Shown: positions 1-24,954 of the stretch, in pieces
How positions within the stretch are numbered: the first letter of the stretch is position 1
Layout: each line of letters begins with the position of its first letter
Assembly: GCA_031373465.1 (NCBI GenBank)
Contig: JANMMQ010000056.1
Coordinates: forward strand, 1-35,494
From: Ilumatobacteraceae bacterium
GTDB lineage: Bacteria > Actinomycetota > Acidimicrobiia > Acidimicrobiales > Ilumatobacteraceae
Direction: 5' to 3'
Length of the DNA: 35,494 nt
The notes under the pieces: generated by a model
Seen by the model: only the letters and a program-made list of their open reading frames with translations
The model's database searches: none
What the model was told of the DNA's origin: nothing
Program-made: the position numbers and the translations under genes

Positions 1-1199
1 CCTTCCTGCGTCGGCCCCACTGGACCGGCTACGACCGTCGATAGCGGTGCAACGTACGGCCACACCTCGAAGAACACGAGGGCACCACCGAACCCGAAGT
101 TGTTGCCGTGATTCATCTGACGACCCTGATCCGTCAGGGAGTAGAACTGACCTTCCAGTGCGTCGGCAGGAATGGTCAGTTCGACGTCTGCTGTTTCACC
201 TGGTCCCACCAACGGCGCGATGAGGGTCTGGGGATCCGTGTAGAGCGAAGCGTTGCGGGCGAGCAGCGTCTGGCGAATCCCCAACATACCCATGGATTTG
301 TCGGTGACACCCGCGTTGACGTAGCGCAGCAACACCTTCTGCCCCGCCGGGACGTCGATGACCGCAGTGTCCGGGAACGACTTGCCGTTGACCAGGTGGT
401 ACACCTTGCGAGGAGTGCCATCGGGGTTCGGCGACTGGCCGAAGTAGCCCATGCCGAAGCTATGCCGCCCGGCCTGGAAGTCGGTTGCGAACTCGAGATC
501 GAGGTCGGTCGTCGCGACGATCGCCTCGTCCACGTATGGAGTTGCTCCGTAAGCACAGGCGTTACATCCAACAGGCGTCACGATCAGAACACCGACAAGG
601 CCCATCGCGATCTGCCGGGGCGCGTCCGCATTGGAGCCTGGCTGGAACACCGATGTGCCGATCATGTCGGCGGTCGTGGTAATGCTGTAGTCGGTGCCAC
701 TCCTGTGCACTGACCCCGCTGGAAGGCTCGGGAACGACAGCTCAGGCATGTCTGCCAGAGCCGGTGCCGAGAAGTGGATGATCAAGTCCGTGCCCGCTGG
801 CACCTTGATCGTCGACGTGTCGCCGCCCGCAAGCGTCACGTCAGACGTAGCGCCAATGTTGACGCCGAAGCCCAGGATCGCCACGTCCTGAGTGCCGAGG
901 GGGTTCGTCACGTCCTTGACCGTCACCGTGCTTGGCCCGGCATACAGGTTGATATCGCACGTCAGTGGTGTGGCGTCGGTCGCACACGTCGTCGCCGCGA
1001 TCGTCGCTGGCCACGTTGGGGCCACGGCCCCCGGCAACAGCCTGTCGCTGAACGTGTCGGCGTGAACTGCAATCGCCCCGCCAGTCAGGCCGGCGATCGC
1101 GATTGCGGCACCGGCCAGCCGCTTCGAGTTGCGCTTGATACCCATGGAAGTGCCTTCCCGCCGAGAGGCTGGTGTTTCTTGAATGGTGGTGTCGTTCAT
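1..1199 (-). CDS. Cupredoxin / multicopper-oxidase-like paralog with no recognisable copper ligands (N-terminal ~400 aa only; continues past the left edge)
   Basis: It is absent from the ORF track because no stop lies in the window. My manual minus-strand translation from ATG 1199 (alternative ATG 1145) stays open to nt 3. It reads MNDTTIQETPASRREGTSMGIKRNSKRLAGAAIAIAGLTGGAIAVHA (signal-like) ... RQIAMGLVGVLIVTP ... YHLVNGKSFPDTAV ... RQMNHGNNFGFGGALVFFEVW. This is collinear with the 1210..2802 product (QVQMGLFGALIIRP, YFMINGRSMPDTVA, NYGITFGGMLTLIKV). The gene starts 10 nt after the upstream stop. Confidence 0.7.
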   Translation of the reverse strand, partial: MNDTTIQETPASRREGTSMGIKRNSKRLAGAAIAIAGLTGGAIAVHADTFSDRLLPGAVAPTWPATIAATTCATDATPLTCDINLYAGPSTVTVKDVTNPLGTQDVAILGFGVNIGATSDVTLAGGDTSTIKVPAGTDLIIHFSAPALADMPELSFPSLPAGSVHRSGTDYSITTTADMIGTSVFQPGSNADAPRQIAMGLVGVLIVTPVGCNACAYGATPYVDEAIVATTDLDLEFATDFQAGRHSFGMGYFGQSPNPDGTPRKVYHLVNGKSFPDTAVIDVPAGQKVLLRYVNAGVTDKSMGMLGIRQTLLARNASLYTDPQTLIAPLVGPGETADVELTIPADALEGQFYSLTDQGRQMNHGNNFGFGGALVFFEVWPYVAPLSTVVAGPVGPTQE

Positions 1200-1209: not shown

Positions 1210-2802
1210 TCAATCACAGTTCGTGTTCATCTGGGCCTGGACCGATGCGGGTGGCTCGACCTTGATCAGGGTGAGCATTCCGCCGAACGTGATGCCGTAG
1301 TTGGTCACTTGTGTCAGGTCGTGATTGTGGGCGACGTGGTAATACTCGCCGCACTGCGTCTTGGTGAGGATCCCCGGGTTCAGGATTCCGCTCTCGCCGA
1401 GATAGGGCGAGCCACTCCAGAAGTCACCCTCTTGGAGGTTCAAGCCATTCGGCCATGCGACCGGGACCCGATTGCCGTCCGAGTCTTCGTACCCGACCTC
1501 GTTCGTCCATCGGAAAGTCGCATCCACGGTGGATCCAGGACCCACCATGATGTTGAACTTCTCCTCGGTGTTGTCGTTGCCCGTGCCAGCACCCTTCATC
1601 AGGGCACCGTCCTGCGCGATCACGTGCTCGTGGTTGGAGTGCGGGTGGAAGTCGTAGCCGGCGGTGCCGACAGCGACATAGCGCAACATCGAGTCGAGCG
1701 CGTTGGCGTTCAGTTCCCAGGGACTCACATGGGCCATGGCACCGTACGGCTGCGAAGGAAGCCACGGTGCGTAGTTCGGTGCGACGGTGTCAGGCATGGA
1801 GCGGCCGTTGATCATGAAGTAGTGCGCCTCATAGGCACGGGGGTACGAGTTCCAGTTGAGCAAGTCGACATTGGCCTTGTTCTGCTCCATGAAGGTGTGG
1901 ACGCCAGGATCCATCTCCGACAACATCAAGATGTTCTCGCTCTTCGAATCGCCGTCGTAGATCGCCAGGGGATCGCACCTCGTCGGGTCGTCGAGCCTTG
2001 CATAGGCGCACTTGGCCTTGGCGGCCGCCGCGCTCGCCGCAGCGGGGGTCATCCCGGCGCCACCATTCGTGGTGCCGCTGCCGTCCAGAGGAATCCCAAG
2101 AATGTCGATGTCCTCGATGGCTATCGGCGAACGGCTTCCGTCAGGCAGCTGAACTGAAGGTCGAATGATCAGTGCCCCGAACAAACCCATCTGCACCTGC
2201 AGCTGTGGATCGGAACCGCTCTGATACAGGTACGTGCCCGCGCTGCCTGCGACGAAGCTGTAGCTGATGCTTGCACCGGGGGCAGCCTGTGGCACTAGCG
2301 ACACCAGCTCGCCGGCTGACGCCACTGGACCGACAGGGCCGCTCGTGAAAGTGTCGTCGTACAGGACGCCTGTCTGGCCGGGGAACTGGATCGACGTCGC
2401 GACTGGAAGGAGATTGTGCAGGTTGACCTGGAGTGTGTCACCTTGGTCTGCGCACAGCACAGGCCCGGGCAGTTGGAATGCCCCGGAGGCGTTTCCATTT
2501 CCGTAGCCCCAGTCGTAGATGGCATTGCCGTCGGGCTCGCTGGTGTAGCCGTCGTCAGCGGTGAGGTCGAAGACCCGGTTGCCGGTGGCGTCGAAGCTGC
2601 CCTCGGTGCAAACCATTCCCTCACTCATCGGGCCGCTGGTTGCAGCTTGCGAATGGCCACCGAGCGGCGCGATCGAAGCGCCCGCGGCGCACAATCCTGC
2701 GACGCCGAGCCACACCGCCAACTTCGTCCTACGCCGCCGTGCGACCGTGGGTTCGTTCCCGCTCATCGCGTCCCCGTTCTGAATCATGTTGATGTTGTTC
2801 AT
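1210..2802 (-). CDS. Tat-exported two-cupredoxin multicopper-oxidase-like protein; His-x-His motifs only in the C-terminal domain and no type-1 Cys
   Basis: This is the 3' part of ORF 1210..3150. ATG 2802 gives MNNINMIQNGDAMSGNEPTVARRRRTKLAVWLGVAGLCAAGA (twin-arginine signal-like). The N-domain ligand positions are degenerate (SIQFPGQ; GTYLYQSGSDPQLQVQMGLFG). The C-domain has HPHSNHEH (1624..1647) and YYHVAHNHD...GGM (1321..1338) where HCH would be expected. A GAGG lies about 11 nt upstream of the ATG. Confidence 0.8.
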   Translation of the reverse strand: MNNINMIQNGDAMSGNEPTVARRRRTKLAVWLGVAGLCAAGASIAPLGGHSQAATSGPMSEGMVCTEGSFDATGNRVFDLTADDGYTSEPDGNAIYDWGYGNGNASGAFQLPGPVLCADQGDTLQVNLHNLLPVATSIQFPGQTGVLYDDTFTSGPVGPVASAGELVSLVPQAAPGASISYSFVAGSAGTYLYQSGSDPQLQVQMGLFGALIIRPSVQLPDGSRSPIAIEDIDILGIPLDGSGTTNGGAGMTPAAASAAAAKAKCAYARLDDPTRCDPLAIYDGDSKSENILMLSEMDPGVHTFMEQNKANVDLLNWNSYPRAYEAHYFMINGRSMPDTVAPNYAPWLPSQPYGAMAHVSPWELNANALDSMLRYVAVGTAGYDFHPHSNHEHVIAQDGALMKGAGTGNDNTEEKFNIMVGPGSTVDATFRWTNEVGYEDSDGNRVPVAWPNGLNLQEGDFWSGSPYLGESGILNPGILTKTQCGEYYHVAHNHDLTQVTNYGITFGGMLTLIKVEPPASVQAQMNTNCD

Positions 2803-2815
2803 GTGTCTGCCCGCC

Positions 2816-4372
2816 TCAGCCCGCAACCGGGAATTCGCCGACCCACTCGGGCTCGCCCGCCCAGCCGTTCGGCTTGAGCTGCGGAGCCAGATTCGGGAGA
2901 ACACGCACTTCGCTTCGCTGACCGCCGACCCATGCGTTGGTACCGTCCTCGCTGCCCGTGTAGTGGGACATGCCCCTGTCGTAGAAGGCGTAGGTCCCTT
3001 CCGCAGGAGCCGTGAAGAACACGTCGCGGCTCTCGCCTGGACCAATCTGAATGCTGTCCGTCGCCTTGCGCTGTGCACTCGGCGGTACGTACCGCGAATC
3101 ACGGCCGAGCACGTCGACCTCGAGACCGGGGAACACGATCGTGTGATCAAGGAATCCCAGGTTCGCGAAACGAATCAGGATCCTCTCCCCCGGCGACGCC
3201 TGTACCACCGAGCTCAGCGGGTTGCTGAACAACCGCGAGGCGTCGGTATCGGAGGCAGCCGTCAGGAGGTCTGACTTCATGCCTCCGTGGACCGTGTCTG
3301 CGACCAAACCGCCATCCGTCTGTGCAAAGAGCTGACCCGTGTCGTCGCGTACGCCATTGGGCTCGAGCGTGTCGGGGTACGCACGGCCATTCATCGTCCA
3401 CATGTCCGCGTGGAAGTCTGTCCAGTCCGTGGCTTGGATGTGAGCGTCGCCGAAGTGCGCCCTGGTGTCGATCTCGCTGAGCATGATTGCGTATTCGCGG
3501 TCGTACTTCGTCTCGCCCGTGAGGTCGCCGTCAGCTTGCCCGTATGCCTTGTGCTGTCCGGGCGCTAGCCCAACGGTGTCGGACGGAGACGGCTTGACGA
3601 AGACGATGCCGTGCATGCCCATCGTGACGTGCTCGACGTCTTCGAAGTGGCAGTGGTACATGTACGTGCCGGCGTCCTTCGGGCGGTACACGTAGGTGAA
3701 GTCGTGGCCGATGGCAACGGCGATCGAGCTCTCCGGCACGCCGTCGTAGAACGGGATGGCGTTGCGGAAGCCGTGCCAGTGGAGTGTGTGTCCGTCCACG
3801 AGGTCGGGTCGCAACTGGAGGCCGAGGTTGGTCAGCGTCACCCAGATCTCTTCGCCGACCGTGGAGTAGAAGATCGGAGCGCAGATCTGCGTGCGACCCT
3901 TCTGAGCAGCGACCTGGGACCGGTCGAGGCCCGTCACATTCCGGAAGCAGAAGGCGTAGGTCGTGGTGTTCGCCGGGTCAGCCAGCGGATCAGGGAAGTA
4001 CGGGTCGATGGACGCCGCACCCATGCCTGTTCCGAGAGCACCCGACCAGGGCATCGAGACCCAGCCGTCTGTGCCTGCGAGAGCAAAGTGTCTCACGCCC
4101 AGCGGCGGCGCGCCGACAGCATCGCCGGCTCGTCCGGACGCAGGATCGAGTCCGACCGGCGGCTGGCTGCGGGGTGAGGCCGCAGTGCCGCCCGCGGTGA
4201 TCAGCGCTTTGGCGGCACCCGCCGTGCCGGCCAGCACTGCTGCACCCGTTCCGCCGAGAATGAGGAACTTGCGACGACCAATCAGCCCGCCGACCCTTCC
4301 TTCCTCGTTGTCAGTTCCTGTAGTCACGTCTGTAGTTCCCTTCGTTCCGACCGGGTTGATCCGCCGACTCAT
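2816..4372 (-). CDS. Tat-exported multicopper oxidase family protein; type-1-like site plus four cluster His in the N-terminal cupredoxin domain
   Basis: This is the 3' part of ORF 2816..4600. ATG 4372 overlaps the stop of the giant gene (ATGA at 4369..4372). The N-terminus ...GLIGRRKFLILGGTGAAVLAGTAGAA is Tat-like. HTLHWHG lies at 3770..3790 and YHCHFEDVEHVTMGMHG at 3611..3655. The C-terminal domain (ERILIRFANLGFLDHTIVFPG ... GTYAFYDRGMSHYTG) has no HxH pair. Confidence 0.85.
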   Translation of the reverse strand: MSRRINPVGTKGTTDVTTGTDNEEGRVGGLIGRRKFLILGGTGAAVLAGTAGAAKALITAGGTAASPRSQPPVGLDPASGRAGDAVGAPPLGVRHFALAGTDGWVSMPWSGALGTGMGAASIDPYFPDPLADPANTTTYAFCFRNVTGLDRSQVAAQKGRTQICAPIFYSTVGEEIWVTLTNLGLQLRPDLVDGHTLHWHGFRNAIPFYDGVPESSIAVAIGHDFTYVYRPKDAGTYMYHCHFEDVEHVTMGMHGIVFVKPSPSDTVGLAPGQHKAYGQADGDLTGETKYDREYAIMLSEIDTRAHFGDAHIQATDWTDFHADMWTMNGRAYPDTLEPNGVRDDTGQLFAQTDGGLVADTVHGGMKSDLLTAASDTDASRLFSNPLSSVVQASPGERILIRFANLGFLDHTIVFPGLEVDVLGRDSRYVPPSAQRKATDSIQIGPGESRDVFFTAPAEGTYAFYDRGMSHYTGSEDGTNAWVGGQRSEVRVLPNLAPQLKPNGWAGEPEWVGEFPVAG

Positions 4373-7300
4373 GAGAACGTCACCGCCCTCGTCACCGTGA
4401 GCGTGCCGCTCTGTGTTGCGTTCGGCGGGATGACCGCCGTCGCTGTGCTGTTGACCACGCCGGATGTTCCGGCGGTTCGCTGCGCAGTGATCGTGAACGT
4501 GACGGTTCCGTTGGCAGCCACGTTGATCGTTCGGCTCAACGCCCCGGTCCCCGTCGCTGCTCCCCCGCAGCTGGAGTTCGCTCCGCCTGTGACGGCGCAC
4601 GACCAGCTGTTGAAGTTGACTCCCGGTGGGAGGGGGTTGCTGAGCACAATGCCCGCAATCTGGTCGAGGTTTGCACCGCTGTTGGCGACCCGCACCGCGT
4701 AGGTGTACGTGCCGTTGCCCTGTGGATTGGCCGCATTCGTGGTGTTGGTCAGAACCAGATTGGACCGGGCAACAACGGTGCTCGCCACCGAACTGGCGTT
4801 GTCCGTTGTGACTGTGTCGACGTAGTTCGCAACGGGTCCCAACGTGGCCGACTCGACGATGCTGGACCCGATGGCAGCGCCGTTGGCGACCGCGATCCCC
4901 AGCGGTAGGCCGAAGACAACCGCAGTCGAGTAGGTGAATGTCACCGTGCCGCCGCCGGCGACAGTCAGTGTTCGGTTGATGTTCCCCGCAGCGAGGCCCG
5001 GACCACCACAGTCGCTGCCTGCGCCGACCGCTGAGCAGCCGTACCCGATGAGACCGGTCGTCGCACCAGTGAGAGCGGTGGTCAGCTGGCCCTTCATCGT
5101 CGTCGTGCCGGTGTTGGACACCGTGATCACGTAGGGCAGCACCTGACCACGTGTGACCGACGGCAGTGCAGCGGGGGTGACGAGAACCTTGAGGTTTCCG
5201 CTGACCTGCACTGCAAACACCGCCGATGCCGAGTTGTTGCCGGTGAAGTTGTCAGTGATACCCGAAGTCGGGGCTGGCGCGACCGTGGCGATGTTCGTGA
5301 CCGAGCCGGCCGGGGCGTTGGCGGCCAACGTGCCGGTCAGGACGAAGGTCATGGTGGAACCTGTCGGCAGCAAGACATCCTGGATGAGGTTTCCGGCCGG
5401 GATGCTCGCGGGGCAGGTTGCGCTGCCGGTCGAGGTGCAGCTCCACGTACCGGTGACCGCCGCCGGGGCACCCGGCAGTGTGTCGGCCACCCGGGCAAGG
5501 CCGGCCGCAGGGCCGTAGTTGCTGACTGTGATCGTGTACGTGACCGCGCCGCCCGGGCTTACCGTTGCCGGCGACGCCGTTTTGCTGATGGCGAAGTCCG
5601 CATTGGTGCCCAGTTCGTCGGCGCCGCGGTCGACGTTGCCGATCGGACGATCGTCGGCGTCGATGTCGCGTGGTGGAGCGGTGGCTCCGTCACCGGCATT
5701 GAGTCCGGTGTTGAGAGTGCCATTGACGCCACCGGCGCTCGGCGACAAAAGGTGGTAGTCGGCCAGCAGGGTGATCGGAACCATCTGGGCAACGATCACC
5801 GGGAACGACACGTTGGTGTTGTTGCGCCACATCAAGCTGTCGACCACGAAGTCCTGCGGATGGGCGAAGCCCACACCACCGCCGCTGGCGGCAATCGTGC
5901 CGTCCAAAGTCGGGTTGATGTTGTCCGTCGTGCTCACGTAGCTGAGTGCGGCGCTTCCGGCATGCAACGGTGAACTTGTCGCGTTCGTCGTATTGCCTAT
6001 TCCCGTGAAGGCGAACGGTGCGGCCCCGCCGTTGTTGAGACCGGCCGTCGAGGCGACGCCGATGTCCCAACGCTGAATTTCAGCTCCATTGGTTGGGTCG
6101 CCGATCCCGTGGAGCGCGCTTCCGTTGGATGTCGCCGTCGGCAACTCGGCCCATCCGGCCCGGTTGTCGGCGAAGATGTTGTTCAACAACCTCGGCTTCG
6201 ACCAGTTCGGCGAGTTGGCGGGCATCGGTGGCTGCCCGTTGCAGGTGGCGGCGTTGACGCAGCCTTGCAACTGCACCGAGTTTCCACCTGTCGAGAGGCC
6301 TGCGGGGTTGGCCAGCCTGATGTTGCCGCTGGCAGAGTTGGTGGCCGCGGTCGCCGTGGTGATGTTCTTGACGATGGTGTTGTTCACGAGCGTCACGTTC
6401 GGGGCGTCATCGAGCGCCACACCGCCACCCTCGTGAGTGGACAGGTTGTTGGCGATGATGTTGTTGGACACCATCTCCGGGAAGTTGCCCGCCATCAGGA
6501 ACCTGATGCCACCACCGTCGTCGTTGGACTGGTTGGCAACCAACGTGTTGCTGTCGATGGTGACCGGGCCTGCGCCACGACTCAGTTGAGTGTTGTTGGC
6601 CGGCAGGGCGCCAGCGATCATGATGCCGCCGCCCTCGTCGTAACCCTGGTTGTAGTAGATGCGGTTCCTGGTGATGGCGCCACCGTTCGAGCGGCCGTAG
6701 TGCGAGATCGCCCCGCCGTACTCCGCCGAGAAGTTGCCGCAGAAGTCGTTTCCAGTAACCGTGTAGTTGTCGGCACCGGCAAAGATGCCGAGCGCGCCGG
6801 CCAGGTTCGTGCCGCCGTTGGCAACGATCCTGTTGTTGGCGACGTTGAGGCGTTCGTTGTGGTTGCTCGAGGCATTGGCGTCGCCAGGCAGGTCCGGCGT
6901 CCCGACACGGATCGTGCCGTAGGTGCCGCCGTTCGACTGGATCTGGTTGTTTGTGATCTGGAAGTCACGAACGTACTGATCGAGCATCACGGCGCCGCCC
7001 TGCGCGGGCCCCGGGTTGGTCGGAGCTGCAAGGCCATCGGGGATGCCGCCTGGCAAGGTGTTGATGTTGCCCGGGTTGCCCTGCTGGTCGCCGCCGGTCA
7101 GCAGCAGCCCGTCGAGACCTGCCCGGAAGTTGGTAGAGGGGCTCTGGTTCCCTGGCACGTACTGGTTCTGGGTCTCGGCGATGGCGAGCACGCCCTCACC
7201 CTCGGGAAGTTCGGTTGGGCCGGAACCCTGGCGGGTGAGCGCGGCGGCGAATGTTCGCCAGTCATCGGAGTAGCTGCCGTCCGATGTGTTTTGGTTGCCT

Positions 7301-10300
7301 CCTGACGGAACGACCTGAGTGGCCGACCAGTACTGCGATGCGTCGATGTTCGTGCCCGGAGCGACGTTCGTGGGAGTGATGGCCCCGCCGGGACCAACGC
7401 CTTGCAGCTTGATCTTGCTGTGCAGTACGACGTTCTCGAAGTACGCCGCCAACGGATTGTGTGCCGCGTAGTTCGGCGCCGTGTTCGGGTAGATCACGAT
7501 GAGCTGCGGCCGGGCGTTGCTCCTGTTGCCGGCGTCCTGGCGGGCACGCTCGATGGCCCGTTGGATCGCACGTCCACCGCTGACTGGTGTTCCGACCACT
7601 TCCGAGCCGATCGGCTTTGCGTTTCCGCTGAAACCAGCAGGAGTGTCCGTTGCGGTGTCCCAGGCGTCCATCTGCGGTGTGAAGACGCGGATGCCGACGC
7701 TGTTCGTGCCATCCGTCGTCGGCTCAGGACGAACCTCGTAGACATCACGGCGCTGGAGGTACGCCGAGCCGTTGGCCGACCCCGGCGACAGCACGTGGAA
7801 CGTGAGGCCATTGACGGTGTTGAGGCCATTAGCGTGGACGCTTAGCTGGTATGCACCGGGAGAATTCACCACCGATGCAGGTACGGTAAAAATGATCTCG
7901 TTCTCGGTCGAGGTTGTGGACACAGCTGTCGAGGTGTTACCGAGCGTCAACGTCGTCGTGGCCGAGGCACCGAACCCGCTTCCCCGAATTCTGTAGGTAT
8001 GGCCACTGTCGCCACCGGAGTTCGGGTCGTAATAGGGCTTGTCGATCGAGAAGAGCACAGCGTTCTTCACGTCGAGCTTGCACAGGCTCAGCGCACCGAA
8101 CTGCGCCGCCGGACCCTCGATCGTGATCCCGTTGTGTGTCGGAGCCTGGTCAACGGGATGCACTACACCCGGCCATGCCTGGAACTCAGTCGCAATGGTT
8201 CGGAACTGCGGGTTGTAGTCGAGGTTGCGGTGCGCCGAAGTGCCGGGGTCGTTCCCGACGAGGCGGTACACGTTTGGACAAGGACCGGCCGGCAGCGGGC
8301 AGTTGTATGTCCCCGTCGATGGCAGCAGGATCTCGTAGAAACCGTTGACGTCGCTGTGCGCTGTCAACTTCCAGTTGCCATTCTCGTCGTAGACGCCGAC
8401 AGGAACATTGGAGGCCGGGGCCACCTCACCGAACATGGTGCTGCGACGGTCGGTCTGCACGTTGAGGTCGTCGTTGACCAATCCGTAAAACTTCGATGGC
8501 AGCGGCACCTCGGTGTACATGAAGAAGCCGGCCGGCATCGAGCGGCCACCGGCGACTGTCACGACCTTGGCATCGCAGACCGGAACGGTGCGTCCGGCGT
8601 ACGGGTTGCCGCCGGCATCATTGAGGTCTGGGTTGATGGCACCTTGGCCGGTTCCCGAGCCCACGGGGCCGATGGGTGGCACCGTGAAGGTCGAGCCAGC
8701 GCACAGCGCTACGGTTCCTGCGCCCAGCGAGTTGCGATCATAGCGGATCGGCGCGCTCGGTGTGACCTGCAGGCCGTAGCCACCTGCGGCTCCCGCCGCA
8801 GGGCCGGAGAAACCCTGTTGCGGAACGTAGCTGTCGCCGCTCATCACGTTGATGGCCGTCTCGTCCGTGAACCGGAACAGCCGGTTCGGGTTACTGCCGT
8901 CGATGTAGCCGCCGACGTTCGTGTCGGGAACGCTCTTCACGTTGATCGTGTCAACCGGGTTGACGGCCTCCACGACGTAGTCTCCCGATGTCAGGGCAGT
9001 CGACTGGGTCGGGTTGTTCTGGGCGTCGGCGTAGACCGACTCGAGATCGGTGCCGGCAGGAACCTGCAGCGTCGTCGGATCGATCAGGCTCGTCAGCGCG
9101 TAGTTGCCGTCGACCGTGCCCTCGCCGCCGATCTGCACACCACTCATCGGGGCTTCGATGCACTCGGGGTTGTTGGTATCGGTGTGCGAGGGATCCGCTG
9201 TGACCGGCGAGTCCGGCAGAGCAAGCTCGCCGGCGAGCGGATTACCGTTGACATCTAGCGCGGTGCAGCCAGTGGGTCGAGTCCAGCTCTCCGTGACGTA
9301 GTAGTCGTAGGGCAGACACGGCTGGCTCTCGGTCACGGCGTTGGTGCCGCGCGACATGTCAGGACGCAGGCACTCGTTGCCATTCGGTTGGATGCCCCAC
9401 TGTTGGACGGCGCCGCTGTTCCCGGCAGCGCCGTTGTAGGTGTCGACGTGGACGCCGTCGGACTTGTGGGTCTTCCACAGCTGCATCGAGATGCCCGGGA
9501 CGCCCGGCTGGTAGTCCTCTTGCGCCGAGAAAGCTGGATCGAACTCGTTGCGTGTGACGTCGTACGTGACGGTTCCGACGATTCCGCCGTTCTCGTCCCT
9601 CGGCGCAGTGCCAAGAGCCCCGCCGGACCAGTAGTCGTCGCCCGTGCCGTACGCCTGGACGCCCCAGTCCAAGTGCGCCGACAGACCAATGACGGGGAGG
9701 AAGTCGACGTCTACCTGTGCCGACAACACGGTCTTGGGTGTCAGGTCGTTGTCGGTGTAATAGGTGAAGCCGGTGTTCTTGTAGCGAGGGTTGTAGGCCT
9801 CGGCGATGAGGAACTGGCCCAAGGGATAACCCTGACTGAGGTCGTACTCGCCCTCGTCGTTCGTGACGGCGACATTGGCGCCCTGGTCTTGGACCGAGTT
9901 GCCGCGGGTGCGCTCGGACAACCCGAAATCAGGGATGCCGGGCTCGAGTTGGCCGTTGGGACCAAGGTCGCGCTTACCGTTGCCGTTGAGGTCGTTGAAG
10001 ACGACGCCACGGAGATCGGTGAACCAACCCGGCAGCAGAATGTCTCCGGCGTCGTTGGTGTTGTCGACCTGCGGCGTTGGGGTCGAATCGGCAGTCGTCG
10101 GTGCTGCGTCTTGCCTGCGGACCCGGACGGTCAATCCGTTGCTGCTGACGTTGGTCACCACGAACATGCCGTTCCAGGTTGGGTTGCCTGCGCCGACCAG
10201 AGGGATGGTCGCACCGACAGCGAGACCGGAGGCAACGGCAAAGTTCAGGGTCAGCTGACCGGCGTTGGCACCAGTGCCAATTCGGGTCGCACTCGTGATC

Positions 10301-15496: not shown

Positions 15497-17782
15497 ATGA
15501 CGCCAGTAGCCAAGCGACGGTTCGTCCGCGCCGACGGACCAGACAAGGTGACCGGTAGCGGGCGGTACACCGCTGACCTCACCCTCACGGGCATGCTCGC
15601 GGCGAAGTTCCGGTACGCCGGGATCGCGCACGCCCGCATCACCAGGATCGATGTGAGCGCGGCACGGGCCATTCCCGGTGTGATGGCCGTGTTGACCAAC
15701 GACGATGTACCGGACGTGCGATTCGGGCCGTTCGTACAGGACCGCACCCTCTTCGCCCGCGACGTCGTTCGATTCGAGGGAGAGGTCGTTGCAGCCGTCG
15801 CCGCGACAACCGCTGCCATCGCTCAGAGAGCAGTCGACGCGATCGTCGTCGAGTTCGAACCTCTTCCTGTCATCACCGACCTCGAGGCGGCACTCGCACA
15901 GGACGCGCCGCTGGTACACACCGGTTGGGCCGACTACGGCGCCGCGGGTGAGCTGGTGCGAAATGGCAACGACGCATCGTTCTCGTCGATCGAAAAGGGC
16001 GATGTCGATGCCGGCCTGGCCGCAGCGGACCACGTGGTCACCAGTCGCTATGTCGCCGACGGCAGTCACGCCGTGCCGATCGAGCCGCGTGCGGTCGTCG
16101 CCCAATGGGAGGGCAACAAGGTCACCATCTGGTCGTCCACGCAGGTGCCTTTCGATGCCCGGGGTGGCGTCTGCGAGACGTTGGAGCTTCCGGCCAACCG
16201 GGTTCGCATCGTCGTCCCCCATCTCGGCGGAGGCTTCGGCGGCAAGTGTGGTTTCCATTACGAAGCGCATGTCGCCGCGCTCGCCCGAGCTTCGAAGCGA
16301 CCGGTGCGATTGGTGTTCTCGCGGCGCGAGGAGTTCGTCGCTCCCGACCGTCGTCGCGAAGGGATGGTCATCGACATCACCACCGGGGTCCGCAACGACG
16401 GAACGATCACGGCCCGTCAGGCGTGGATCGCGATCGACAACGGTGCCTACACGGCTGACAGCGGTTTCTTCCCGCAACTGGCGGCGATGCACGTGTCCGG
16501 GCCTTATCGAATCCCCAACCTGCACGTTGCCGCCCATCTCGTGTACACCAACCACCAACCGTCGGGGTCGGTTCGGGCGCCCACGGCGCCGCAGGCATGT
16601 TGGGCCGTCGAGTCGCACACCGACGAGGTCGCTGCCGCAGTGGGCATGGACCCGGTCGAGTTTCGCAGGCTCAATGCGGTCGACACGGGTGTCGAAGGGC
16701 CCAGTGGACAGACCTACGGCGAGATCGGTGTGCAGCAGTGCATCGAAGAGGCCACCAAGTTGGTCGGGTACGGGCGATCCTTGCCCGATGACGAGGCGAT
16801 CGGCGTCGCGATCGGCTGGTGGCCGAGCTTCGCGGTGCCGTCGGGTGCCTACATCAAGATCGACGGTGACGGTTCCGGCCAGATCATCACGGGTGCGCAA
16901 GAGTGCGGCACCGGTTCAGTGATGACGCTCCGCCAGCTCGCCGCGGAGGAGCTCGGCATGGAGCCGGAGGACTTCCAGCTGATCTATCAAGACACCTCCG
17001 TCGCTCCGTACGACATGGGTGCCACAGGCTCACAGACTCTCTTCAACAACGGCCGGGCCGTCGTTGCCGCTGCGGGTCAAATCGCAGAGCAGCTCAAGGC
17101 CCTGGCGGCAGAACACCTCGAAGCGTCCGCCGCCGACATCGTCCTGGCCGACGGTCACGCGCACGTCGCGGGTACCCCGAGCTCGACGGTGTCGATCACC
17201 GAGCTGGCGGCGATCGCTGGCGGCGGTGAGCTGTTGATCGGACACGGGTCGGGTACACCGCCATCAGCGCCACCATTGGCGGGCTCCACGTGTGTCGGCG
17301 ATGTCGGCATGGCGTCGTTCGTCGCCCCGCAGTTCTCGTGTCATGCCGTGCGCATCCGGCTCGATCGCGACACGGGGGTGGTGCGGGTGCTCGAGGTTGG
17401 TGCCGCACACGACTCGGGAACGATCATCAACGAGACCGGTGCGCTCGGTCAGATCCAAGGTGGCGTGATGATGGGGATCGGTCAGGCGTTGACCGAGGGA
17501 ACGCTGTATGACGACGATTCTCGGCAGCGCAATGCCGCGCTGCTTGAGTACAAGTTGCAGACGTCCGCCGATGCGCCGGTGATCAACACGCACTTCGTGC
17601 AGATCGCCACACCGGACGCAGGACCACGCGGCGCCAAGGGGCTGGCCGAAGCACCCAACGTTGCAACTGCTGCCGCAATCTCCAACGCCCTCGCCAAGTT
17701 GCTCGGGGGCCCGGTTCGCCGACTGCCGATGACGGCTGAACGAGTCTGGGAGACGGGCACACAATCAGGGGTCCGTTCATGA
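15497..17782 (+). CDS. Xanthine dehydrogenase / aldehyde oxidase family molybdopterin-binding large subunit
   Basis: This is the 3' part of ORF 15146..17782. The start is ATG 15497 (MTPVAKRRFVRADGPDKVTGSGRYTADL...) or in-frame ATG 15458. The product is ~761 aa with the typical family N-terminus and length. The upstream part of the track ORF overlaps the protease gene. Confidence 0.85.
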   Translation: MTPVAKRRFVRADGPDKVTGSGRYTADLTLTGMLAAKFRYAGIAHARITRIDVSAARAIPGVMAVLTNDDVPDVRFGPFVQDRTLFARDVVRFEGEVVAAVAATTAAIAQRAVDAIVVEFEPLPVITDLEAALAQDAPLVHTGWADYGAAGELVRNGNDASFSSIEKGDVDAGLAAADHVVTSRYVADGSHAVPIEPRAVVAQWEGNKVTIWSSTQVPFDARGGVCETLELPANRVRIVVPHLGGGFGGKCGFHYEAHVAALARASKRPVRLVFSRREEFVAPDRRREGMVIDITTGVRNDGTITARQAWIAIDNGAYTADSGFFPQLAAMHVSGPYRIPNLHVAAHLVYTNHQPSGSVRAPTAPQACWAVESHTDEVAAAVGMDPVEFRRLNAVDTGVEGPSGQTYGEIGVQQCIEEATKLVGYGRSLPDDEAIGVAIGWWPSFAVPSGAYIKIDGDGSGQIITGAQECGTGSVMTLRQLAAEELGMEPEDFQLIYQDTSVAPYDMGATGSQTLFNNGRAVVAAAGQIAEQLKALAAEHLEASAADIVLADGHAHVAGTPSSTVSITELAAIAGGGELLIGHGSGTPPSAPPLAGSTCVGDVGMASFVAPQFSCHAVRIRLDRDTGVVRVLEVGAAHDSGTIINETGALGQIQGGVMMGIGQALTEGTLYDDDSRQRNAALLEYKLQTSADAPVINTHFVQIATPDAGPRGAKGLAEAPNVATAAAISNALAKLLGGPVRRLPMTAERVWETGTQSGVRS

Positions 17783-18678
17783 ACTTCACGATCGCCACCA
17801 CGCTCGACGACGCTCTCGCCGCGGTCGCCTCGGGTGCCCGGCCGGTGGCCGGCGGCAGTGACCTGGTCGTCGGGGCTCGCCAGGGCAAGGCGCCTCTGCC
17901 CGAGTCCGTCGTCGCCATCGACCGGATTCGGTCGCTCGGCGACATAGACGAATCCAACGATGGCGTTCGCATCGGCGCGTTGGTCACGCACGCCAGACTC
18001 GAGGTCGACGCTGGGATCGTGAGGACGTACCCGGCGCTGGCCGACGCAAGTGCGTTGGTCGGCTCACCGTCGACGCGCAACGTCGGAACCCTCGGCGGCA
18101 ACGTGATGAACGCATCTCCGGCCATGGACACCGGCGCACCTCTGCTCGTGTTGGCCGCAGAGATCGAGCTCCAATCGACGAAGAAGTCGCGGCGCATTCC
18201 CATCGGCGAGTTGTGGACGGCACCCGGCCGCACGTCGGCGCAGCCGGACGAGTTGTGCGTTGCAGTCCACCTCCCGACCCAACAGGCGAGGTCATCGAGC
18301 GCGTACCTTCGTCTCGAATATCGCCGGGCCATGGAGATCGCAGTCGTCGGCGCGGCGGCGTCGGTGACGCTCGACGAGGATGGAGGGCTCGCCGCGTTGT
18401 CGATCGCGCTCACCGCCGTTGCACCCACCATTGTCTCGGTTGGCGGCTTGGACGCACTCATCGGCCGTCAGGTCGACGCCGCGCTGCTCGCCGATGTCGC
18501 TTCACGTGCCAGTGAGCAGTCCACACCGATCAGCGACCTCAGAGCCAGCGAGCGTTACCGCCGACATTGCGTCGGCGTGATGGCATCACGGGCAGTCGAC
18601 GCAGCCGCGCGACGAGCTCGAGGTGAGTCGATCGCGGTGCCCGTCAACCGCAACCTCGGGATAGGAGCAGCGTCGTGA
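17779..18678 (+). CDS. FAD-binding medium subunit of a molybdopterin dehydrogenase (CoxM/XdhB-like)
   Basis: There is an ATGA overlap with the large-subunit stop. The product begins MNFTIATTLDDALAAVASGARPVAGGSDLVVGARQGK (AGG[ST]DL motif). Confidence 0.85.
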   Translation: MNFTIATTLDDALAAVASGARPVAGGSDLVVGARQGKAPLPESVVAIDRIRSLGDIDESNDGVRIGALVTHARLEVDAGIVRTYPALADASALVGSPSTRNVGTLGGNVMNASPAMDTGAPLLVLAAEIELQSTKKSRRIPIGELWTAPGRTSAQPDELCVAVHLPTQQARSSSAYLRLEYRRAMEIAVVGAAASVTLDEDGGLAALSIALTAVAPTIVSVGGLDALIGRQVDAALLADVASRASEQSTPISDLRASERYRRHCVGVMASRAVDAAARRARGESIAVPVNRNLGIGAAS

Positions 18679-19142
18679 GCGTCTCGATCACTCTCAACGT
18701 CAACGGAACGGACTATCCCGTGACCATTGACGCAGGACGCAACCTGGTCAGCGTTCTGCGCACCGAGATTGGCCTGACAGGCACGAAAGAGGGCTGCGAC
18801 GACTGCGAATGCGGGGCTTGCATGGTGTTGATCGACGGTCACCCGGTCAACTCGTGCTCCTACCTCGCGGCACAGGCAGCCGACCGACAGGTGTTGACGG
18901 TCGAGGGTGTGATGGTCGGAAACGAACTGCATCCGTTGCAACAGGCGCTGCTCGATGAGGGCGGGGTGCAATGTGGCTTCTGCACGCCGGGCATGATCAT
19001 CTCGGCGACCGCACTGCTGAACCACAACGCCTCACCGACAGAGGAAGAAGTGCGCATCGGTCTGTCGGGGAACCTGTGCCGGTGCACCGGCTACGTGAAG
19101 ATCCTCGCCGCTGTACAACGCGCCGTCGCCGACGCTCACTGA
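18675..19142 (+). CDS. [2Fe-2S]-binding small subunit (CoxS/XdhC-type iron-sulfur subunit)
   Basis: There is a GTGA overlap with the medium-subunit stop. The two cluster motifs are EGCDDCECGACMV and CGFCTPGMI...CRCTGY. Confidence 0.9.
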   Translation: MSVSITLNVNGTDYPVTIDAGRNLVSVLRTEIGLTGTKEGCDDCECGACMVLIDGHPVNSCSYLAAQAADRQVLTVEGVMVGNELHPLQQALLDEGGVQCGFCTPGMIISATALLNHNASPTEEEVRIGLSGNLCRCTGYVKILAAVQRAVADAH

Positions 19143-21328: not shown

Positions 21329-22922
21329 CGGCGACGAACCTGACCGCGTTGTCGGGAGCCCACTGTCCAGCTGCGTCCATCAGACAATCCATGATCAATT
21401 GGGCGACGGCAGATCCCTGGTCCGCCGGCGCGTGAACGAGCAACTCGTCGTGCAGGCACAGCACGATCTCGGCGTCGTGCTCCCCTGCTCTGGTGCGCAC
21501 CATCACCGCCCACACCTTGAAGAACTCGGCCGCGGCGCCTTGAACCATCGCGTTGCGGCCGTATCGACCTCGCGCCGCTGCCCTGCTGCGATTGTCGCGG
21601 TCGCTCAGTGCTTCGGCAACCGCCGACCCCATGCGAACGAGCCGACCGCCATACGTTCGAATGTCGCGGCCCACCTGACCGGAAACATCGGCATCGGTGA
21701 GATATCGCATTGCCACGGGATATGCCTGTTCGAGGCCGCGCAATGCGGCTGCGCCGTGACCGGTCGTCTGCCCGTACATCGCCCCGAGCACCGCGACCTT
21801 CGCAGTAGCGCGGTCGACGCCCAGCTGCTCGGCCACCGGCAGGTACATGTCGTCCTGCACGGCGGCCTCGGCGAGCGCCTGATCACCCGACACCGCGGCG
21901 AGGATGCGCGGCTCGATCTGCCCGAGATCGGCGCGGATGAACACGTAGCCGTCGTTGGCGATCACGGCAGGGCGCAAGTGCGCAGGCATGTTGTGCAGAC
22001 CGGCCGATGCTGTCATTCGGCCCGCGGCGCCATCGCTTGCCGACCACTCGCCGCGAAGTCGACCGTCGCCTCCCAAGTGCTCGTCCAACCAGCCGTATCC
22101 GAACGTTGTCGCGATCCGTTCCGCCTTGCGCCATTCCAATAGTGCGTCGACCAGCGGATGAGATCCACGAATCGCCTCCAGCCGCCACGCCCGCGTGTCC
22201 GGCAGCTCGACGCCGATACCGCGCAACAACGACTTCACCTGAGCGGGGTTGCGAAGATCGCAGTTCGGGTTCGACGAGTGACGCAACACCTCCATGTCGC
22301 GCGCCAGCCGTTGCTCTGCCGCCTCCGTCTCCGTTCGTGGACGCGGTCCGACGAACGATTCGATGATCGATTCGGCGATTCCACGATCCATGGGCAGCCC
22401 GTCGGCTGAAAGTTCGGCACACAGCAGCTCAGCGGCGGACTCCGATCGGGCAGTCGACAAGGCCTTTGGTCGATCCCCGAGGATTGCCAATCGTGCCTGC
22501 TGCAGCGACGCGACCTGCGCGGCCAGTTGCGCCCAACGTGCGAGCCGTGCCGGCGTCCACGCGAAGTCGGGCGCCAGCCATTCCGGCTTGAGGAACCCGT
22601 CATCGCGAACCGGTTCATCCGCCTGGCGATCGTCGTCTGGCTCGGTGAACAAGTCGACAGGGGCAACAACCGGTGGTTCTCCGTCGAGATCGTGCAGCTC
22701 GGCCCACGCCCGGCCGGGATCTGTTCGCCAACCACCTACGAGCAATCGTTGAACCGCGGCGACGTCCCAGCACTTGGCCGGGCGCAACCCACCATCGACG
22801 AGCAGGCCCATCGGCTCGCGGCCCCACAGCACCCACCGAGGGCGCACGTCGTCTTCGATCGCACGAATCAGTTCGACAGGAGTCTCGCTGGCGACGTGCT
22901 TTGACCAAGTCTCGGTCGCCAA
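21288..22922 (-). CDS. Stand-alone family-A DNA polymerase-like protein ('bifunctional 3'-5' exonuclease/DNA polymerase' type) with a poorly conserved N-terminal domain
   Basis: Motif A-like FIRADLGQIEPRIL, motif B-like RATAKVAVLGAMYGQT and motif C-like LCLHDELLV are present. The track start is TTG at 22922, so the true start is uncertain (a GTG at ...DDVRPRW is possible). Confidence 0.75.
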   Translation of the reverse strand: MATETWSKHVASETPVELIRAIEDDVRPRWVLWGREPMGLLVDGGLRPAKCWDVAAVQRLLVGGWRTDPGRAWAELHDLDGEPPVVAPVDLFTEPDDDRQADEPVRDDGFLKPEWLAPDFAWTPARLARWAQLAAQVASLQQARLAILGDRPKALSTARSESAAELLCAELSADGLPMDRGIAESIIESFVGPRPRTETEAAEQRLARDMEVLRHSSNPNCDLRNPAQVKSLLRGIGVELPDTRAWRLEAIRGSHPLVDALLEWRKAERIATTFGYGWLDEHLGGDGRLRGEWSASDGAAGRMTASAGLHNMPAHLRPAVIANDGYVFIRADLGQIEPRILAAVSGDQALAEAAVQDDMYLPVAEQLGVDRATAKVAVLGAMYGQTTGHGAAALRGLEQAYPVAMRYLTDADVSGQVGRDIRTYGGRLVRMGSAVAEALSDRDNRSRAAARGRYGRNAMVQGAAAEFFKVWAVMVRTRAGEHDAEIVLCLHDELLVHAPADQGSAVAQLIMDCLMDAAGQWAPDNAVRFVADVSVISRWSDSKN

Positions 22923-22978
22923 CGCGAAGCCGACGCGAGGAGCGAGCGCCAGGGCGAGGAACGCGCCCCTTTCAAGGT

Positions 22979-23536: not shown

Positions 23537-23632
23537 CGTTCACTCTCTTCCGGTTCGATTTGGCCTTCGCCCTGTGACGTTAGCTCCGAGATCCATCTGG
23601 CGAACAGCCGGTGCGCCGGAGAGAATGCAGCC

Positions 23633-24952: not shown

Positions 24953-24954
24953 TC

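What the first reader, a model, noticed from the sequence alone, without database searches (positions are those of the whole stretch)
1210..4372. Copper-ligand motifs are partitioned between two adjacent MCO paralogs: a possible 'split' heteromeric trinuclear copper site
Seen in the sequence:
- The 2816..4372 product has, in its N-terminal cupredoxin domain, HTLHWHG (3770..3790) and YHCHFEDVEHVTMGM (3611..3655). This is an L3/L4-like arrangement providing His/Cys/His/Met for a type-1 site plus two HxH pairs.
- Its C-terminal domain has no HxH pair.
- The 1210..2802 product is the reciprocal. Its N-domain positions are degenerate (SIQFPG; YLYQSGS).
- Its C-domain has HPHSNHEH (1624..1647) and HVAHNH (1321..1338), which are two HxH pairs with Asn/Ala in place of the type-1 Cys.

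Established knowledge: a trinuclear Cu cluster needs eight His from four HxH motifs. In two-domain MCOs (the SLAC type) it forms at the interface between domains of different chains.

Inference: neither protein alone can build the cluster. Together they have exactly the required set, which suggests an obligate hetero-oligomeric MCO.
Basis: partly seen in the sequence, partly recalled or inferred. Interest (0 to 1): 0.8.

Follow-up and report, generated by a model that had tools for sequence, protein, structure and literature searches.

The report
Copper oxidase split across three paralogs
Three neighbouring sister genes each encode a two-domain copper-oxidase-like protein, but only one domain of the first and one domain of the second keep copper-binding residues, and these fit together as the two halves of one oxygen-reducing copper centre, so the enzyme most likely works only as a mixed complex, a form not described for this enzyme class.

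Summary
The motifs are real and lie at the stated coordinates. A (2816..4372, -) is a two-domain multicopper oxidase (MCO). Its domain 1 keeps a full type-1 site plus two HxH pairs (H195/H198/H200, H240-C241-H242, H248, M253), invariant in 67 orthologs. Its domain 2 has no conserved ligand.

B (1210..2802, -) is the mirror image. Domain 1 is dead. In domain 2 the only His invariant across 81 orthologs are H386/H388 (HPH[G/S], aligned by profile to the HTHG motif of Nitrosomonas blue copper oxidase 3g5w) and H492/H494.

A third two-domain paralog, C (window start..1199, -), has no ligands at all. The cassette giant protein-A-B-C is conserved in about 80 genomes of Actinomycetota and Chloroflexota. 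Natural B~C fusions exist.

Best reading: an A·B·C heterotrimeric ring, like a two-domain MCO trimer or an unfused ceruloplasmin, with one T1/trinuclear site at the A-D1/B-D2 interface.

This rests on conservation, synteny and fold. No complex model or biochemistry was possible. I found no report of a heteromeric two-domain MCO. Substrate and the giant protein's role are unknown.

The parts
4369..12096 (-). G: a 2575-aa secreted giant protein with SdrD-B, TIG, beta-helix repeats and DUF11 repeats. It is the first gene of the cassette, and its stop overlaps the A start (ATGA).
   Evidence: ORF. Pfam and NCBIfam domains. An ortholog lies directly upstream of A in every locus that has enough upstream sequence. 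There is no PDB relative by sequence. Across 44 orthologs only one His is conserved. Junction sequence.
2816..4372 (-). A: a 518-aa two-domain MCO paralog. Domain 1 keeps the T1 site and two HxH pairs. Domain 2 is ligand-free.
   Evidence: AF2 model with pLDDT 80.7. Best Foldseek hit is 3g5w, E 3.7e-20, TMt 0.70.
4262..4276 (-). Twin-arginine (Tat) motif R33-R34-K-F-L in the signal peptide of A.
   Evidence: Sequence. R33 and R34 are nearly invariant. An RRx## motif is present in 57 of 67 A orthologs, against 21/81 for B and 10/75 for C.
3770..3790 (-). A motif H195-T-L-H198-W-H200-G: one T1 His plus the first HxH pair. It is followed by the invariant D210-G211 at 3740..3745.
   Evidence: Invariant in 67/67 orthologs. 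Aligns to HTIHWHG of 3g5w.
3614..3655 (-). A motif H240-C241-H242-x5-H248-x4-M253: the T1 Cys, His and Met plus the second HxH pair. E244 and E247 are also invariant.
   Evidence: Aligns to YHCHVNVNEHVTMRGM of 3g5w.
1210..2802 (-). B: a 530-aa two-domain MCO paralog. Domain 1 is ligand-free. Domain 2 keeps two HxH pairs and has no T1 site.
   Evidence: AF2 model with pLDDT 80.2. Foldseek best hits are two-domain MCOs (9cck, 2zwn, 7rab, 3g5w, 3gdc) with TMt 0.67-0.71.
2377..2397 (-). B domain-1 TSIQFPG, the degenerate counterpart of A's HTLHWHG. YLYQSGS at 2212..2232 is the counterpart of YMYHCHF.
   Evidence: hhalign of B-D1 against A-D1, probability 97%. These non-His residues are themselves conserved.
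1636..1647 (-). B motif H386-P-H388-S (family consensus HPHG), proposed as the third HxH pair of the trinuclear cluster. The invariant D398 at 1609..1611 follows it.
   Evidence: H386 and H388 are present in 80/81 orthologs, the 81st being a gap. The motif aligns to the HTHG/HSHG motif of 3g5w and 2zwn domain 2, hhalign probability 94%, E 1e-7. More distant representatives read HPxHxHGN.
1321..1329 (-). B motif H492-N-H494 (family consensus A-H-[N/S]-H-x3-Q), proposed as the fourth HxH pair.
   Evidence: Present in 79/81 orthologs, the other two being gaps. The surrounding loop has low AF2 confidence in the monomer model.
1..1199 (-). C: the N-terminal ~399 aa of a third two-domain cupredoxin paralog, with no conserved His or Cys. 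The gene runs off the start of the window. Orthologs are 750-1300 aa and carry a long C-terminal extension.
   Evidence: Translation. ATG at 1199, 10 nt after the B stop. hhalign against B gives probability 100%, E 3.8e-43, and against A gives E 1.7e-31. No conserved ligands in 75 orthologs. C lies directly downstream of B in nearly all loci with enough sequence. It is fused to B in P0247 and P0252.

Best explanation
A, B and C are three paralogs descended from a type-C two-domain multicopper oxidase. They now assemble as an obligate 1:1:1 heterotrimer: a six-cupredoxin-domain ring like a homotrimeric two-domain MCO, or like ceruloplasmin cut into three chains.

Only one of the three subunit interfaces is catalytic.
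- Domain 1 of A supplies the type-1 copper (H195, C241, H248, M253) and four His (H198/H200, H240/H242).
- Domain 2 of B supplies the other four His (H386/H388, H492/H494).
- Together these form one trinuclear Cu cluster, linked to the T1 site through the Cys-His bridge.
- Electrons taken from a substrate at the T1 site of A reduce O2 to water at the A/B interface.
- The other two interfaces (B-D1/C-D2 and C-D1/A-D2) are ligand-free on both sides and are purely structural.

The complex is extracytoplasmic. A is exported by Tat, and B and C mostly by Sec, so the cluster is probably loaded outside the cell. CopC/CopD genes lie nearby in related loci. The complex works together with the giant secreted protein G encoded just upstream.

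What is shown: the motifs, their exclusive conservation, the folds, the paralogy, the synteny and the B~C fusions. What is inferred: the physical A/B interface, the 1:1:1 ring, copper binding, oxidase activity, and any role for G.
For: 1. Exactly complementary ligand sets. A has invariant H195, H198, H200, H240, C241, H242, H248 and M253, and nothing conserved at the domain-2 ligand positions. B has nothing at the domain-1 positions, and only H386, H388, H492 and H494 are invariant. C has none.

2. Canonical placement. A-D1 aligns to 3g5w domain 1 motif for motif. B's HPH[G/S] aligns to the HTHG of 3g5w/2zwn domain 2 (transitively). Both half-sites keep HxHG-x8-D, which I recall as the spacing of the second-sphere Asp in MCOs.

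3. Fold. AF2 models of A and B are two-domain MCOs. Their top structural relatives are homotrimeric enzymes whose copper centres sit between subunits.

4. No orphan half-sites. With A-D1 paired to B-D2, the remaining interfaces pair dead domains with dead domains. Any homotrimer would leave four conserved His facing a ligand-free partner.

5. Synteny. G-A-B-C lie in this order on one strand in about 80 species-level genomes of Actinomycetota and Chloroflexota, plus one Myxococcota MAG. In the window the junctions are overlapping or 10-13 nt apart.

6. Rosetta-stone fusions. B and C form a single polypeptide in two independent clusters, each sitting in a G-A-(B~C)-small-CopCD locus.

7. Confidence pattern. 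The monomer AF2 models lose confidence exactly at the ligand loops: A 200-220 and 241-250, B 455-480 and 491-508.

8. Covariation (weak). Nine of the ten strongest A-B covarying column pairs link A212/A214, just after HWHG..DG, with B499-512, just after HNH; the tenth is A159-B506. A-D1 x B-D2 pairs are about 2.5-fold enriched in the top 50.
Against: - Convergence of the eight His is therefore untested.
- The covariation signal reflects essentially one deep split of the cassette into two subfamilies. B-D2 columns are also enriched against C. So the signal is suggestive only, and it gives no support for C contacts.
- A is a Tat substrate while B and C are mostly Sec substrates. The subunits therefore cannot be co-exported as a preassembled complex.
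- The second B motif needs a 2-residue indel relative to 3g5w, and HMM methods did not align it confidently.
- A H306/H311 and B H302 are conserved but unexplained.
- There are no biochemical data for any member.
Confidence: 0.62

Rival explanations
1. A and B share the trinuclear cluster as proposed, but C is not the third ring member. The catalytic unit would be an A·B heterodimer, or a ring completed by a second copy of A or B. C, with its long C-terminal extension, would be an accessory or anchoring protein, for example tethering the oxidase to the giant protein or to the cell wall.
For: - Covariation gave no sign of the predicted B-D1/C-D2 or A-D2/C-D1 contacts.
- C carries a 400-900 aa extension that A and B lack.
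- The linkers in the B~C fusions are long, 150-470 aa, so the fusions do not fix a geometry.
Against: - C is a bona fide two-domain paralog of A and B.
- C is present directly after B in essentially every locus, and in some lineages it is fused to B.
- A ring completed by a second A or B would carry an orphan half-site.
- All close structural relatives are trimers.
Confidence: 0.17
2. There is no shared cluster. A would be a blue-copper electron-transfer protein whose four extra His are vestigial or bind a partial site. B would bind a different metal centre of its own, mono- or binuclear, with its four His. The two would act sequentially or independently.
For: - The monomer models fold well without a partner.
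- A and B use different export routes.
- Additional conserved His (A H306/H311, B H302) hint at sites other than the canonical ones.
Against: - Vestigial ligands would not stay invariant across two phyla while the neighbouring His drift.
- The HCH Cys-His bridge in A has no purpose without T3 coppers.
- B's motifs occupy the canonical HxHG position of a trinuclear-cluster half-site.
- The pattern in which A-D2, B-D1 and both C domains are all dead fits a single shared interface too neatly.
Confidence: 0.13
3. The genes are decaying MCO duplicates, that is, pseudoenzymes with structural roles only, and the motif complementarity is coincidental.
For: Catalytically dead MCO-fold proteins do exist. 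FtsP/SufI and insect MCORP turned up in the literature searches. C itself is one such protein.
Against: - The T1 set and the eight His are fully invariant in 67-81 orthologs at 36-99% identity.
- Codon GC3 is coding-like, at 0.77-0.79.
- CopC/CopD genes lie adjacent in related loci.
Confidence: 0.03

Closest known systems
Blue copper oxidase of Nitrosomonas europaea (PDB 3g5w), a type-C two-domain MCO
   Same: - It is the best sequence and structure match of A (E 2.5e-14; Foldseek E 3.7e-20, TMt 0.70).
- The T1 site lies in domain 1, with HTxHWHG and YHCHx5EHVTM motifs.
- It has two cupredoxin domains per chain.
   Different: 3g5w is a homotrimer. Every chain carries ligands in both domains, giving three clusters per trimer. 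Here the D1 and D2 ligand sets sit on different gene products, a third paralog has neither, and at most one cluster per trimer is possible.
SLAC and other type-B small laccases (e.g. 3cg8, 2zwn), and the Nitrosopumilus Nmar_1354 two-domain MCO (9cck)
   Same: They share the two-domain fold and appear among the Foldseek top hits for B. SLAC, from memory, is an actinobacterial enzyme exported by Tat. The copper cluster lies between subunits.
   Different: These are homotrimers. The 'heterotrimer' reported for Nmar_1354 is a mixture of proteolytic forms of a single gene product (PMC11761707). Their T1 site lies in domain 2. They have no dead paralogs.
Ceruloplasmin, hephaestin and factor V/VIII: the six-domain MCO architecture
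   Same: They have six cupredoxin domains in a pseudo-threefold ring, with only one trinuclear cluster at one of the three equivalent interfaces. Foldseek also lists ceruloplasmin and factor V among the matches of A.
   Different: These are single eukaryotic polypeptides produced by fusion. Here the three two-domain units are separate, differently exported chains. Ceruloplasmin also keeps extra T1 sites.
The Mnx manganese oxidase complex of Bacillus (MnxG with MnxE3F3)
   Same: It is the known example of a bacterial MCO that functions only as a hetero-oligomer encoded by adjacent genes. This is from memory and was not checked here.
   Different: In Mnx the whole T1/trinuclear set lies within one chain (MnxG), and the partner subunits are not MCO paralogs. 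Here the catalytic cluster itself is split between chains.
FtsP/SufI and insect MCORP: MCO-fold proteins without copper ligands
   Same: C, B-D1 and A-D2 are cupredoxin/MCO-fold modules that have lost all ligands, like these proteins (abstracts of PMC2661564 and PMC4203857 listed).
   Different: Those proteins act alone in non-redox roles. Here the dead modules appear to serve as structural partners of live ones.

Membership tests
Multicopper oxidase (T1 + trinuclear cluster) | Cupredoxin-fold domains of the MCO type | tested here: met
   Pfam Cu-oxidase, Cu-oxidase_2 and Cu-oxidase_3 hits in A, and Cu-oxidase_3 in B and in the C orthologs. AF2 plus Foldseek place A and B among MCOs.
Multicopper oxidase (T1 + trinuclear cluster) | Type-1 ligands His, Cys, His (+Met) | tested here: met
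   H195, C241, H248 and M253 of A are invariant in 67 orthologs and align to the 3g5w T1 motifs. They are absent from B and C.
Multicopper oxidase (T1 + trinuclear cluster) | Eight His in four HxH motifs within the catalytic unit | tested here: met
   Met only by A and B together: A H198/H200 and H240/H242, B H386/H388 and H492/H494. No single chain meets it.
Multicopper oxidase (T1 + trinuclear cluster) | The eight His converge on three Cu at a domain interface; four Cu are bound; O2 is reduced to water | not testable with these tools
No coordinates are returned for the models. There is no biochemistry.
Two-domain MCO, homotrimeric (types A/B/C) | Two cupredoxin domains per chain | tested here: met
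   A, B and C are each two-domain proteins.
Two-domain MCO, homotrimeric (types A/B/C) | Each chain carries trinuclear-cluster His in both domains, so that identical chains build the cluster between them | tested here: not met
   A-D2, B-D1 and both C domains lack conserved His at the ligand positions.
Two-domain MCO, homotrimeric (types A/B/C) | Trimeric ring quaternary structure | not testable with these tools
   Inferred only, from three co-encoded paralogs, the B~C fusions and trimeric structural relatives.
Copper nitrite reductase (NirK) | A T2 site made of three His, with only one His flanking the T1 Cys (no HCH) and an HxxxxH first motif (recalled, not tested against a NirK structure here) | tested here: not met
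   A has HxxHxHG and HCH, which is the MCO pattern. NirK matches are weaker than the 3g5w match. NCBIfam Cu_nitrite_red scores 26 bits against a cutoff of 296.
CopA/PcoA/CueO-type three-domain copper-resistance oxidases | Three domains in one chain with all ligands; NCBIfam equivalog score reached | tested here: not met
   TIGR01480 scores 55 bits against a cutoff of 479, and CueO scores 23 bits against 525. The models have two domains only.

The most novel reading that the evidence does not exclude
The cassette encodes an obligate heterotrimeric multicopper oxidase. Three differentiated two-domain paralogs would form one six-domain ring with a single T1/trinuclear site split between two chains. 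This would be a living 'unfused ceruloplasmin', the intermediate postulated between homotrimeric two-domain MCOs and six-domain MCOs. The ring would be assembled outside the cell from Tat- and Sec-exported subunits, and would work with a ~2000-2700-aa secreted beta-helix/DUF11 protein as a previously unrecognised extracellular oxidase machine. The cassette is widespread in Actinomycetota and Chloroflexota.
Probability: 0.5. Interest if true: 0.85.

Novelty: new variant of a known kind. Interest (0 to 1): 0.72.

Why it matters
Every structurally characterised MCO that I know of, or that these searches returned, either holds its whole catalytic copper set in one gene product or is a homo-oligomer of identical chains.

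A naturally split trinuclear cluster would matter for four reasons.

1. It would add a new quaternary solution to a textbook enzyme family.
2. It would supply the missing intermediate in the proposed route from trimeric two-domain oxidases to ceruloplasmin-like six-domain proteins: duplication, loss of two of the three sites, then fusion.
3. It would be a clean natural case of paralog subfunctionalisation that locks in an obligate heteromer with 'dead' structural subunits.
4. It would flag a conserved four-gene extracellular system of unknown substrate. The system is present in cultured Kribbella, Nonomuraea, Humibacillus and Oscillochloris, so it is experimentally tractable.

There is also a practical point for annotation. 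B and C are currently labelled 'multicopper oxidase domain-containing' or 'hypothetical', and neither could be active alone.

Tried and rejected
1. **Complex modelling.** A, B and C lie in different reading frames, so no single DNA reference can give two chains.

2. **Profile of the B family against PDB sequences.** Only domain 1 aligned, so this gave no information on the domain-2 motifs. I solved this later with hhalign against 3g5w/2zwn fragments.

3. **hhalign of B-D2 against A-D1.** Probability was 1.3%, so I did not use it to place the second motif.

4. **Inter-protein covariation.** The top A-B pairs fall next to the ligand motifs. However, the signal is a single subfamily split, and B-D2 columns are generally enriched. 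I keep it as weak support only. It gave nothing for ring closure by C.

5. **NirK-like T2 site.** Considered and rejected because of the HCH and HxHG motifs.

6. **Seven-His novel cluster in B-D2.** Considered because H302, H391 and H489 are invariant among close relatives. Rejected once the wider family showed that these positions vary.

7. **Apparent long 'fusions' P0269 and P0273.** These are frameshift or gene-calling artefacts with garbled B C-termini. Only P0247 and P0252 are accepted as real.

8. **The jackhmmer C model.** It became too broad to classify distant representatives, so I did not use it for that purpose.

9. **Literature.** Six searches found no heteromeric two-domain MCO. 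The library is open-access only, so absence is not proof.

10. **Giant protein G.** It has no PDB or NCBIfam relative beyond DUF11 repeats.

Full report
**Observation**

The region holds three co-directional genes on the minus strand. The giant ORF G is at 4369..12096, A at 2816..4372 and B at 1210..2802. One motif string is shifted by a single codon.

A has a typical twin-arginine signal (GRRKFLILGG). B has an RRRR-containing signal.

Pfam finds three MCO domain families in A but only the N-terminal Cu-oxidase_3 domain in B. All NCBIfam equivalogs (CopA, CueO, laccase, NirK) score far below their cutoffs. The best PDB sequence match of A is 3g5w, the type-C two-domain MCO of Nitrosomonas europaea (E 2.5e-14). 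HTLHWHG and YHCHFEDVEHVTMGM of A lie under HTIHWHG and YHCHVNVNEHVTMRGM of 3g5w. The two HxH motifs of 3g5w domain 2 lie over non-His residues of A.

**Conservation**

Both proteins have hundreds of homologs, first seen in Ilumatobacteraceae/Acidimicrobiia MAGs.

A genome-collection scan with the B family returned 126 species-level genomes, of which 80 were kept. They come from:
- Acidimicrobiia;
- Actinomycetes, including cultured Kribbella, Nonomuraea and Humibacillus;
- Chloroflexota (Oscillochloris, Anaerolineae, Caldilineaceae, Ktedonobacterales);
- one Anaeromyxobacteraceae MAG.

In 67 A orthologs, H195, H198, H200, H240, C241, H242, H248 and M253 are invariant. The domain-2 positions equivalent to the 3g5w ligands are not His.

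In 81 B orthologs, the only invariant His are H386, H388, H492 and H494. H391, H393, H489 and H302 look invariant among close relatives but vary in the wider family.

The family consensus of the two B motifs is:
- F-H-P-H-G-N ... D398;
- C-G-E-Y-Y-x-x-A-H-[N/S]-H-x-L-x-Q.

The first is an HxHG-x8-D motif and the second an HSH-x3-Q-like motif. From memory, these are the signatures of the T1-less half of an MCO cluster (laccase L1/L2). A carries the T1-bearing half (HxxHxHG, HCHx5Hx4M) plus its own HWHG-x8-D210-G211.

An unbiased HMM search of 1.84 billion representatives found 337 B-like clusters at E<=1e-30. In these, the first motif reads HP-x-H-x-HG-N with a variable middle residue, and only one sequence has HCH.

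**Placement on canonical ligand positions**

Profile-profile alignment puts B-D1's TSIQFPG and YLYQSGS under A-D1's HTLHWHG and YMYHCHF (probability 97%).

It also puts B-D2's FHPHS under A-D2's VFPG (probability 98%), which one search places under HTHG of 3g5w. A direct hhalign of the broad B-D2 profile against the 3g5w/2zwn domain-2 fragments aligns yPFHPHgN with h-a-x-H-x-H-G-H (probability 94%, E 1e-7).

The second B motif lies at the expected place. It is the last strand-loop-strand before the C-terminus (strands 488-492 and 508-515 in the model). However, it needs a two-residue indel relative to 3g5w and was not aligned confidently by any method.

**Fold**

The AF2 models of B (pLDDT 80.2, pTM 0.79) and A (80.7, 0.80) are two-domain MCOs.
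- B's Foldseek best hits are 9cck, 2zwn, 7rab, 3g5w and 3gdc, with TMt 0.67-0.71.
- A's best hit is 3g5w, with E 3.7e-20 and TMt 0.70.

All of these are homotrimers whose catalytic copper sits between subunits.

In both monomer models, the only poorly predicted parts of the mature proteins are the ligand loops: A 200-220 and 241-250, and B 455-480 and 491-508. This is what one expects of loops that are ordered only by copper and a partner.

Directly downstream of B (ATG at 1199, 10 nt after the B stop) begins a third gene, C, which runs off the window.

C is a third two-domain paralog: hhalign against B gives probability 100% and E 3.8e-43, and against A gives E 1.7e-31. It has no conserved His or Cys in 75 orthologs. 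In full-length orthologs it carries a 400-900 aa C-terminal extension.

Classifying all ORFs of the ~80 loci with A, B and C profiles shows the order A-B-C on one strand in essentially every locus long enough to show it. An ortholog of the giant protein lies directly upstream of A. In the window, the G stop and A start overlap (ATGA), the A-B gap is 13 nt and the B-C gap is 10 nt.

Related loci continue with a small protein and CopD or CopC-CopD.

Two independent representative clusters (P0247, 884 aa; P0252, 1156 aa) are genuine B~C fusions. They share a conserved inter-module domain, and each sits in a G-A-(B~C)-small-CopCD locus whose A gene keeps the usual motifs. Two other apparent fusions are frameshift artefacts.

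**Interpretation**

The distribution of ligands is:

| Protein | Domain 1 | Domain 2 |
|---|---|---|
| A | live | dead |
| B | dead | live |
| C | dead | dead |

In a two-domain-MCO-type ring, each interface pairs D1 of one chain with D2 of the next. If A-D1 faces B-D2, then B-D1 must face C-D2 and C-D1 must face A-D2. That gives one complete site and two interfaces that are blank on both sides, with no orphan half-site. Any homotrimer, or a ring completed by a second A or B, would leave four invariant His facing a ligand-free surface.

Together with the strict synteny, the tight gene junctions and the B~C fusions, this makes an A·B·C heterotrimer with a single T1/trinuclear centre the most economical reading. 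It is functionally an ordinary MCO catalytic unit and architecturally an unfused ceruloplasmin.

The ancestor was probably a type-C two-domain MCO. It was triplicated and then lost sites differentially. The cassette is found in two phyla. Some members (for example Humibacillus and one Ilumatobacteraceae MAG) carry the subfamily otherwise typical of Chloroflexota, which suggests that the whole cassette moves horizontally.

**Weak or complicating evidence**

A simple MI-APC analysis of 61-64 paired A/B sequences puts nine of the ten strongest inter-protein pairs between A212/A214 (just after HWHG..DG) and B499-512 (just after HNH); the tenth is A159-B506. A-D1 x B-D2 pairs number 30 in the top 50 against 12-13 expected. 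Three caveats apply:
- the signal corresponds to one deep bipartition, DG-V-P-E with N-Y..F-G-G against DG-E-P with S-W..M-[S/T]-G;
- B-D2 columns are also enriched against C;
- the predicted C contacts are not enriched.

I therefore treat this as suggestive only.

A has a Tat motif in 57/67 orthologs, whereas B and C mostly have Sec-type signals. Assembly and copper loading of the interface must therefore occur outside the cytoplasm. That is compatible with the neighbouring CopC/CopD genes, but it is unlike a simple co-export model.

A H306/H311 and B H302 are conserved and unexplained.

The giant protein has conserved Cys pairs, a beta-helix repeat region, DUF11 repeats and only one conserved His. 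It has no solved relative. Its role (substrate, scaffold or anchor) is unknown, and so is the oxidase's substrate.

**Comparison with known systems and novelty**

The system works like a multicopper oxidase, and A is closest to type-C two-domain MCOs. It fails the defining feature of the homotrimeric two-domain MCO family, which is ligands in both domains of one chain. It is also neither a NirK nor a three-domain CopA/CueO-type enzyme.

The Mnx complex is heteromeric, but it keeps its copper set in one chain. The 'heterotrimer' of Nmar_1354 consists of proteolytic forms of one protein.

Six full-text searches found no description of a heteromeric two-domain MCO or of this cassette. The library is limited to open-access papers.

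I therefore rate it a new variant of a known kind. It is well supported by comparative evidence but untested structurally and biochemically.

**Context**

The rest of the window is ordinary chromosomal content of a high-GC actinobacterium: a luciferase-like monooxygenase, a Rieske protein, a molybdenum hydroxylase with its FAD subunit, a GH36 alpha-galactosidase, a PolA-like protein, a class IV aminotransferase and LigD. There is no sign of a mobile element around the cassette.

Noticed in passing
window 1..1199 (-), and L001 12795-15854, L002 12715-15522: A third two-domain cupredoxin paralog (C) with no copper ligands starts 10 nt after B and runs off the window. Full-length orthologs carry a 400-900 aa C-terminal extension with no Pfam match.
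   Followed up: yes
window 4369..12096 (-): A 2575-aa secreted protein (SdrD-B, TIG, beta-helix repeats at about residues 1700-1950, DUF11 repeats). It is always encoded directly upstream of A, in two phyla. It has conserved Cys pairs, only one conserved His (H1888), and no solved or curated relative.
   Followed up: partly
window 3440..3457 (A H306...H311) and about 1897..1899 (B H302): Two nearly invariant His at the start of A domain 2 (AHFGDAH; 65/67 and 66/67). The equivalent His in B is present in 69/81. These are not canonical MCO ligands and their function is unexplained.
   Followed up: no
window 4262..4276; N-termini of B (about 2725..2740) and C (about 1090..1145): A has a classical Tat motif, but B and C orthologs mostly have Sec-type signal peptides. 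The proposed complex would therefore be assembled from subunits exported by different routes.
   Followed up: partly
L084 1961-4615 (P0247); L085 5246-8716 (P0252): Natural B~C fusion proteins with a conserved small inter-module domain (CSPC...YYV.ARD). Each is followed by a small ORF and a CopC-CopD fusion gene.
   Followed up: partly
L035; L027/L063 (same contig); L061: Some genomes carry two copies of the G-A-B-C cassette. In L061 the two copies are in inverted orientation.
   Followed up: no
P0373 (696 aa): A protein made of two tandem C-like (ligand-free) two-domain modules followed by a dockerin-like C-terminus. This is a four-cupredoxin-domain protein with no copper ligands.
   Followed up: no
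L050 (Humibacillus) and L082 (Ilumatobacteraceae MAG) compared with Chloroflexota loci: The cassette splits into two subfamilies: A 'DGVPE' with B 'NYG..FGG', and A 'DGEP' with B 'SWG..M[ST]G'. The split does not follow phylum boundaries, which suggests horizontal transfer of the whole cassette.
   Followed up: partly
window 12391..32469: The neighbouring genes are unrelated housekeeping or catabolic genes: luciferase-like monooxygenase (12391-13290 +), Rieske protein (13337-14638 -), molybdenum hydroxylase large subunit and FAD subunit (15146-18678 +), GH36 alpha-galactosidase (19136-21328 -), PolA-like protein (21288-22922 -), class IV aminotransferase fused to a glyoxalase-like domain (23507-24952 +), LigD (27943-29529 +), and a beta-propeller repeat protein (30766-32469 +).
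   Followed up: no
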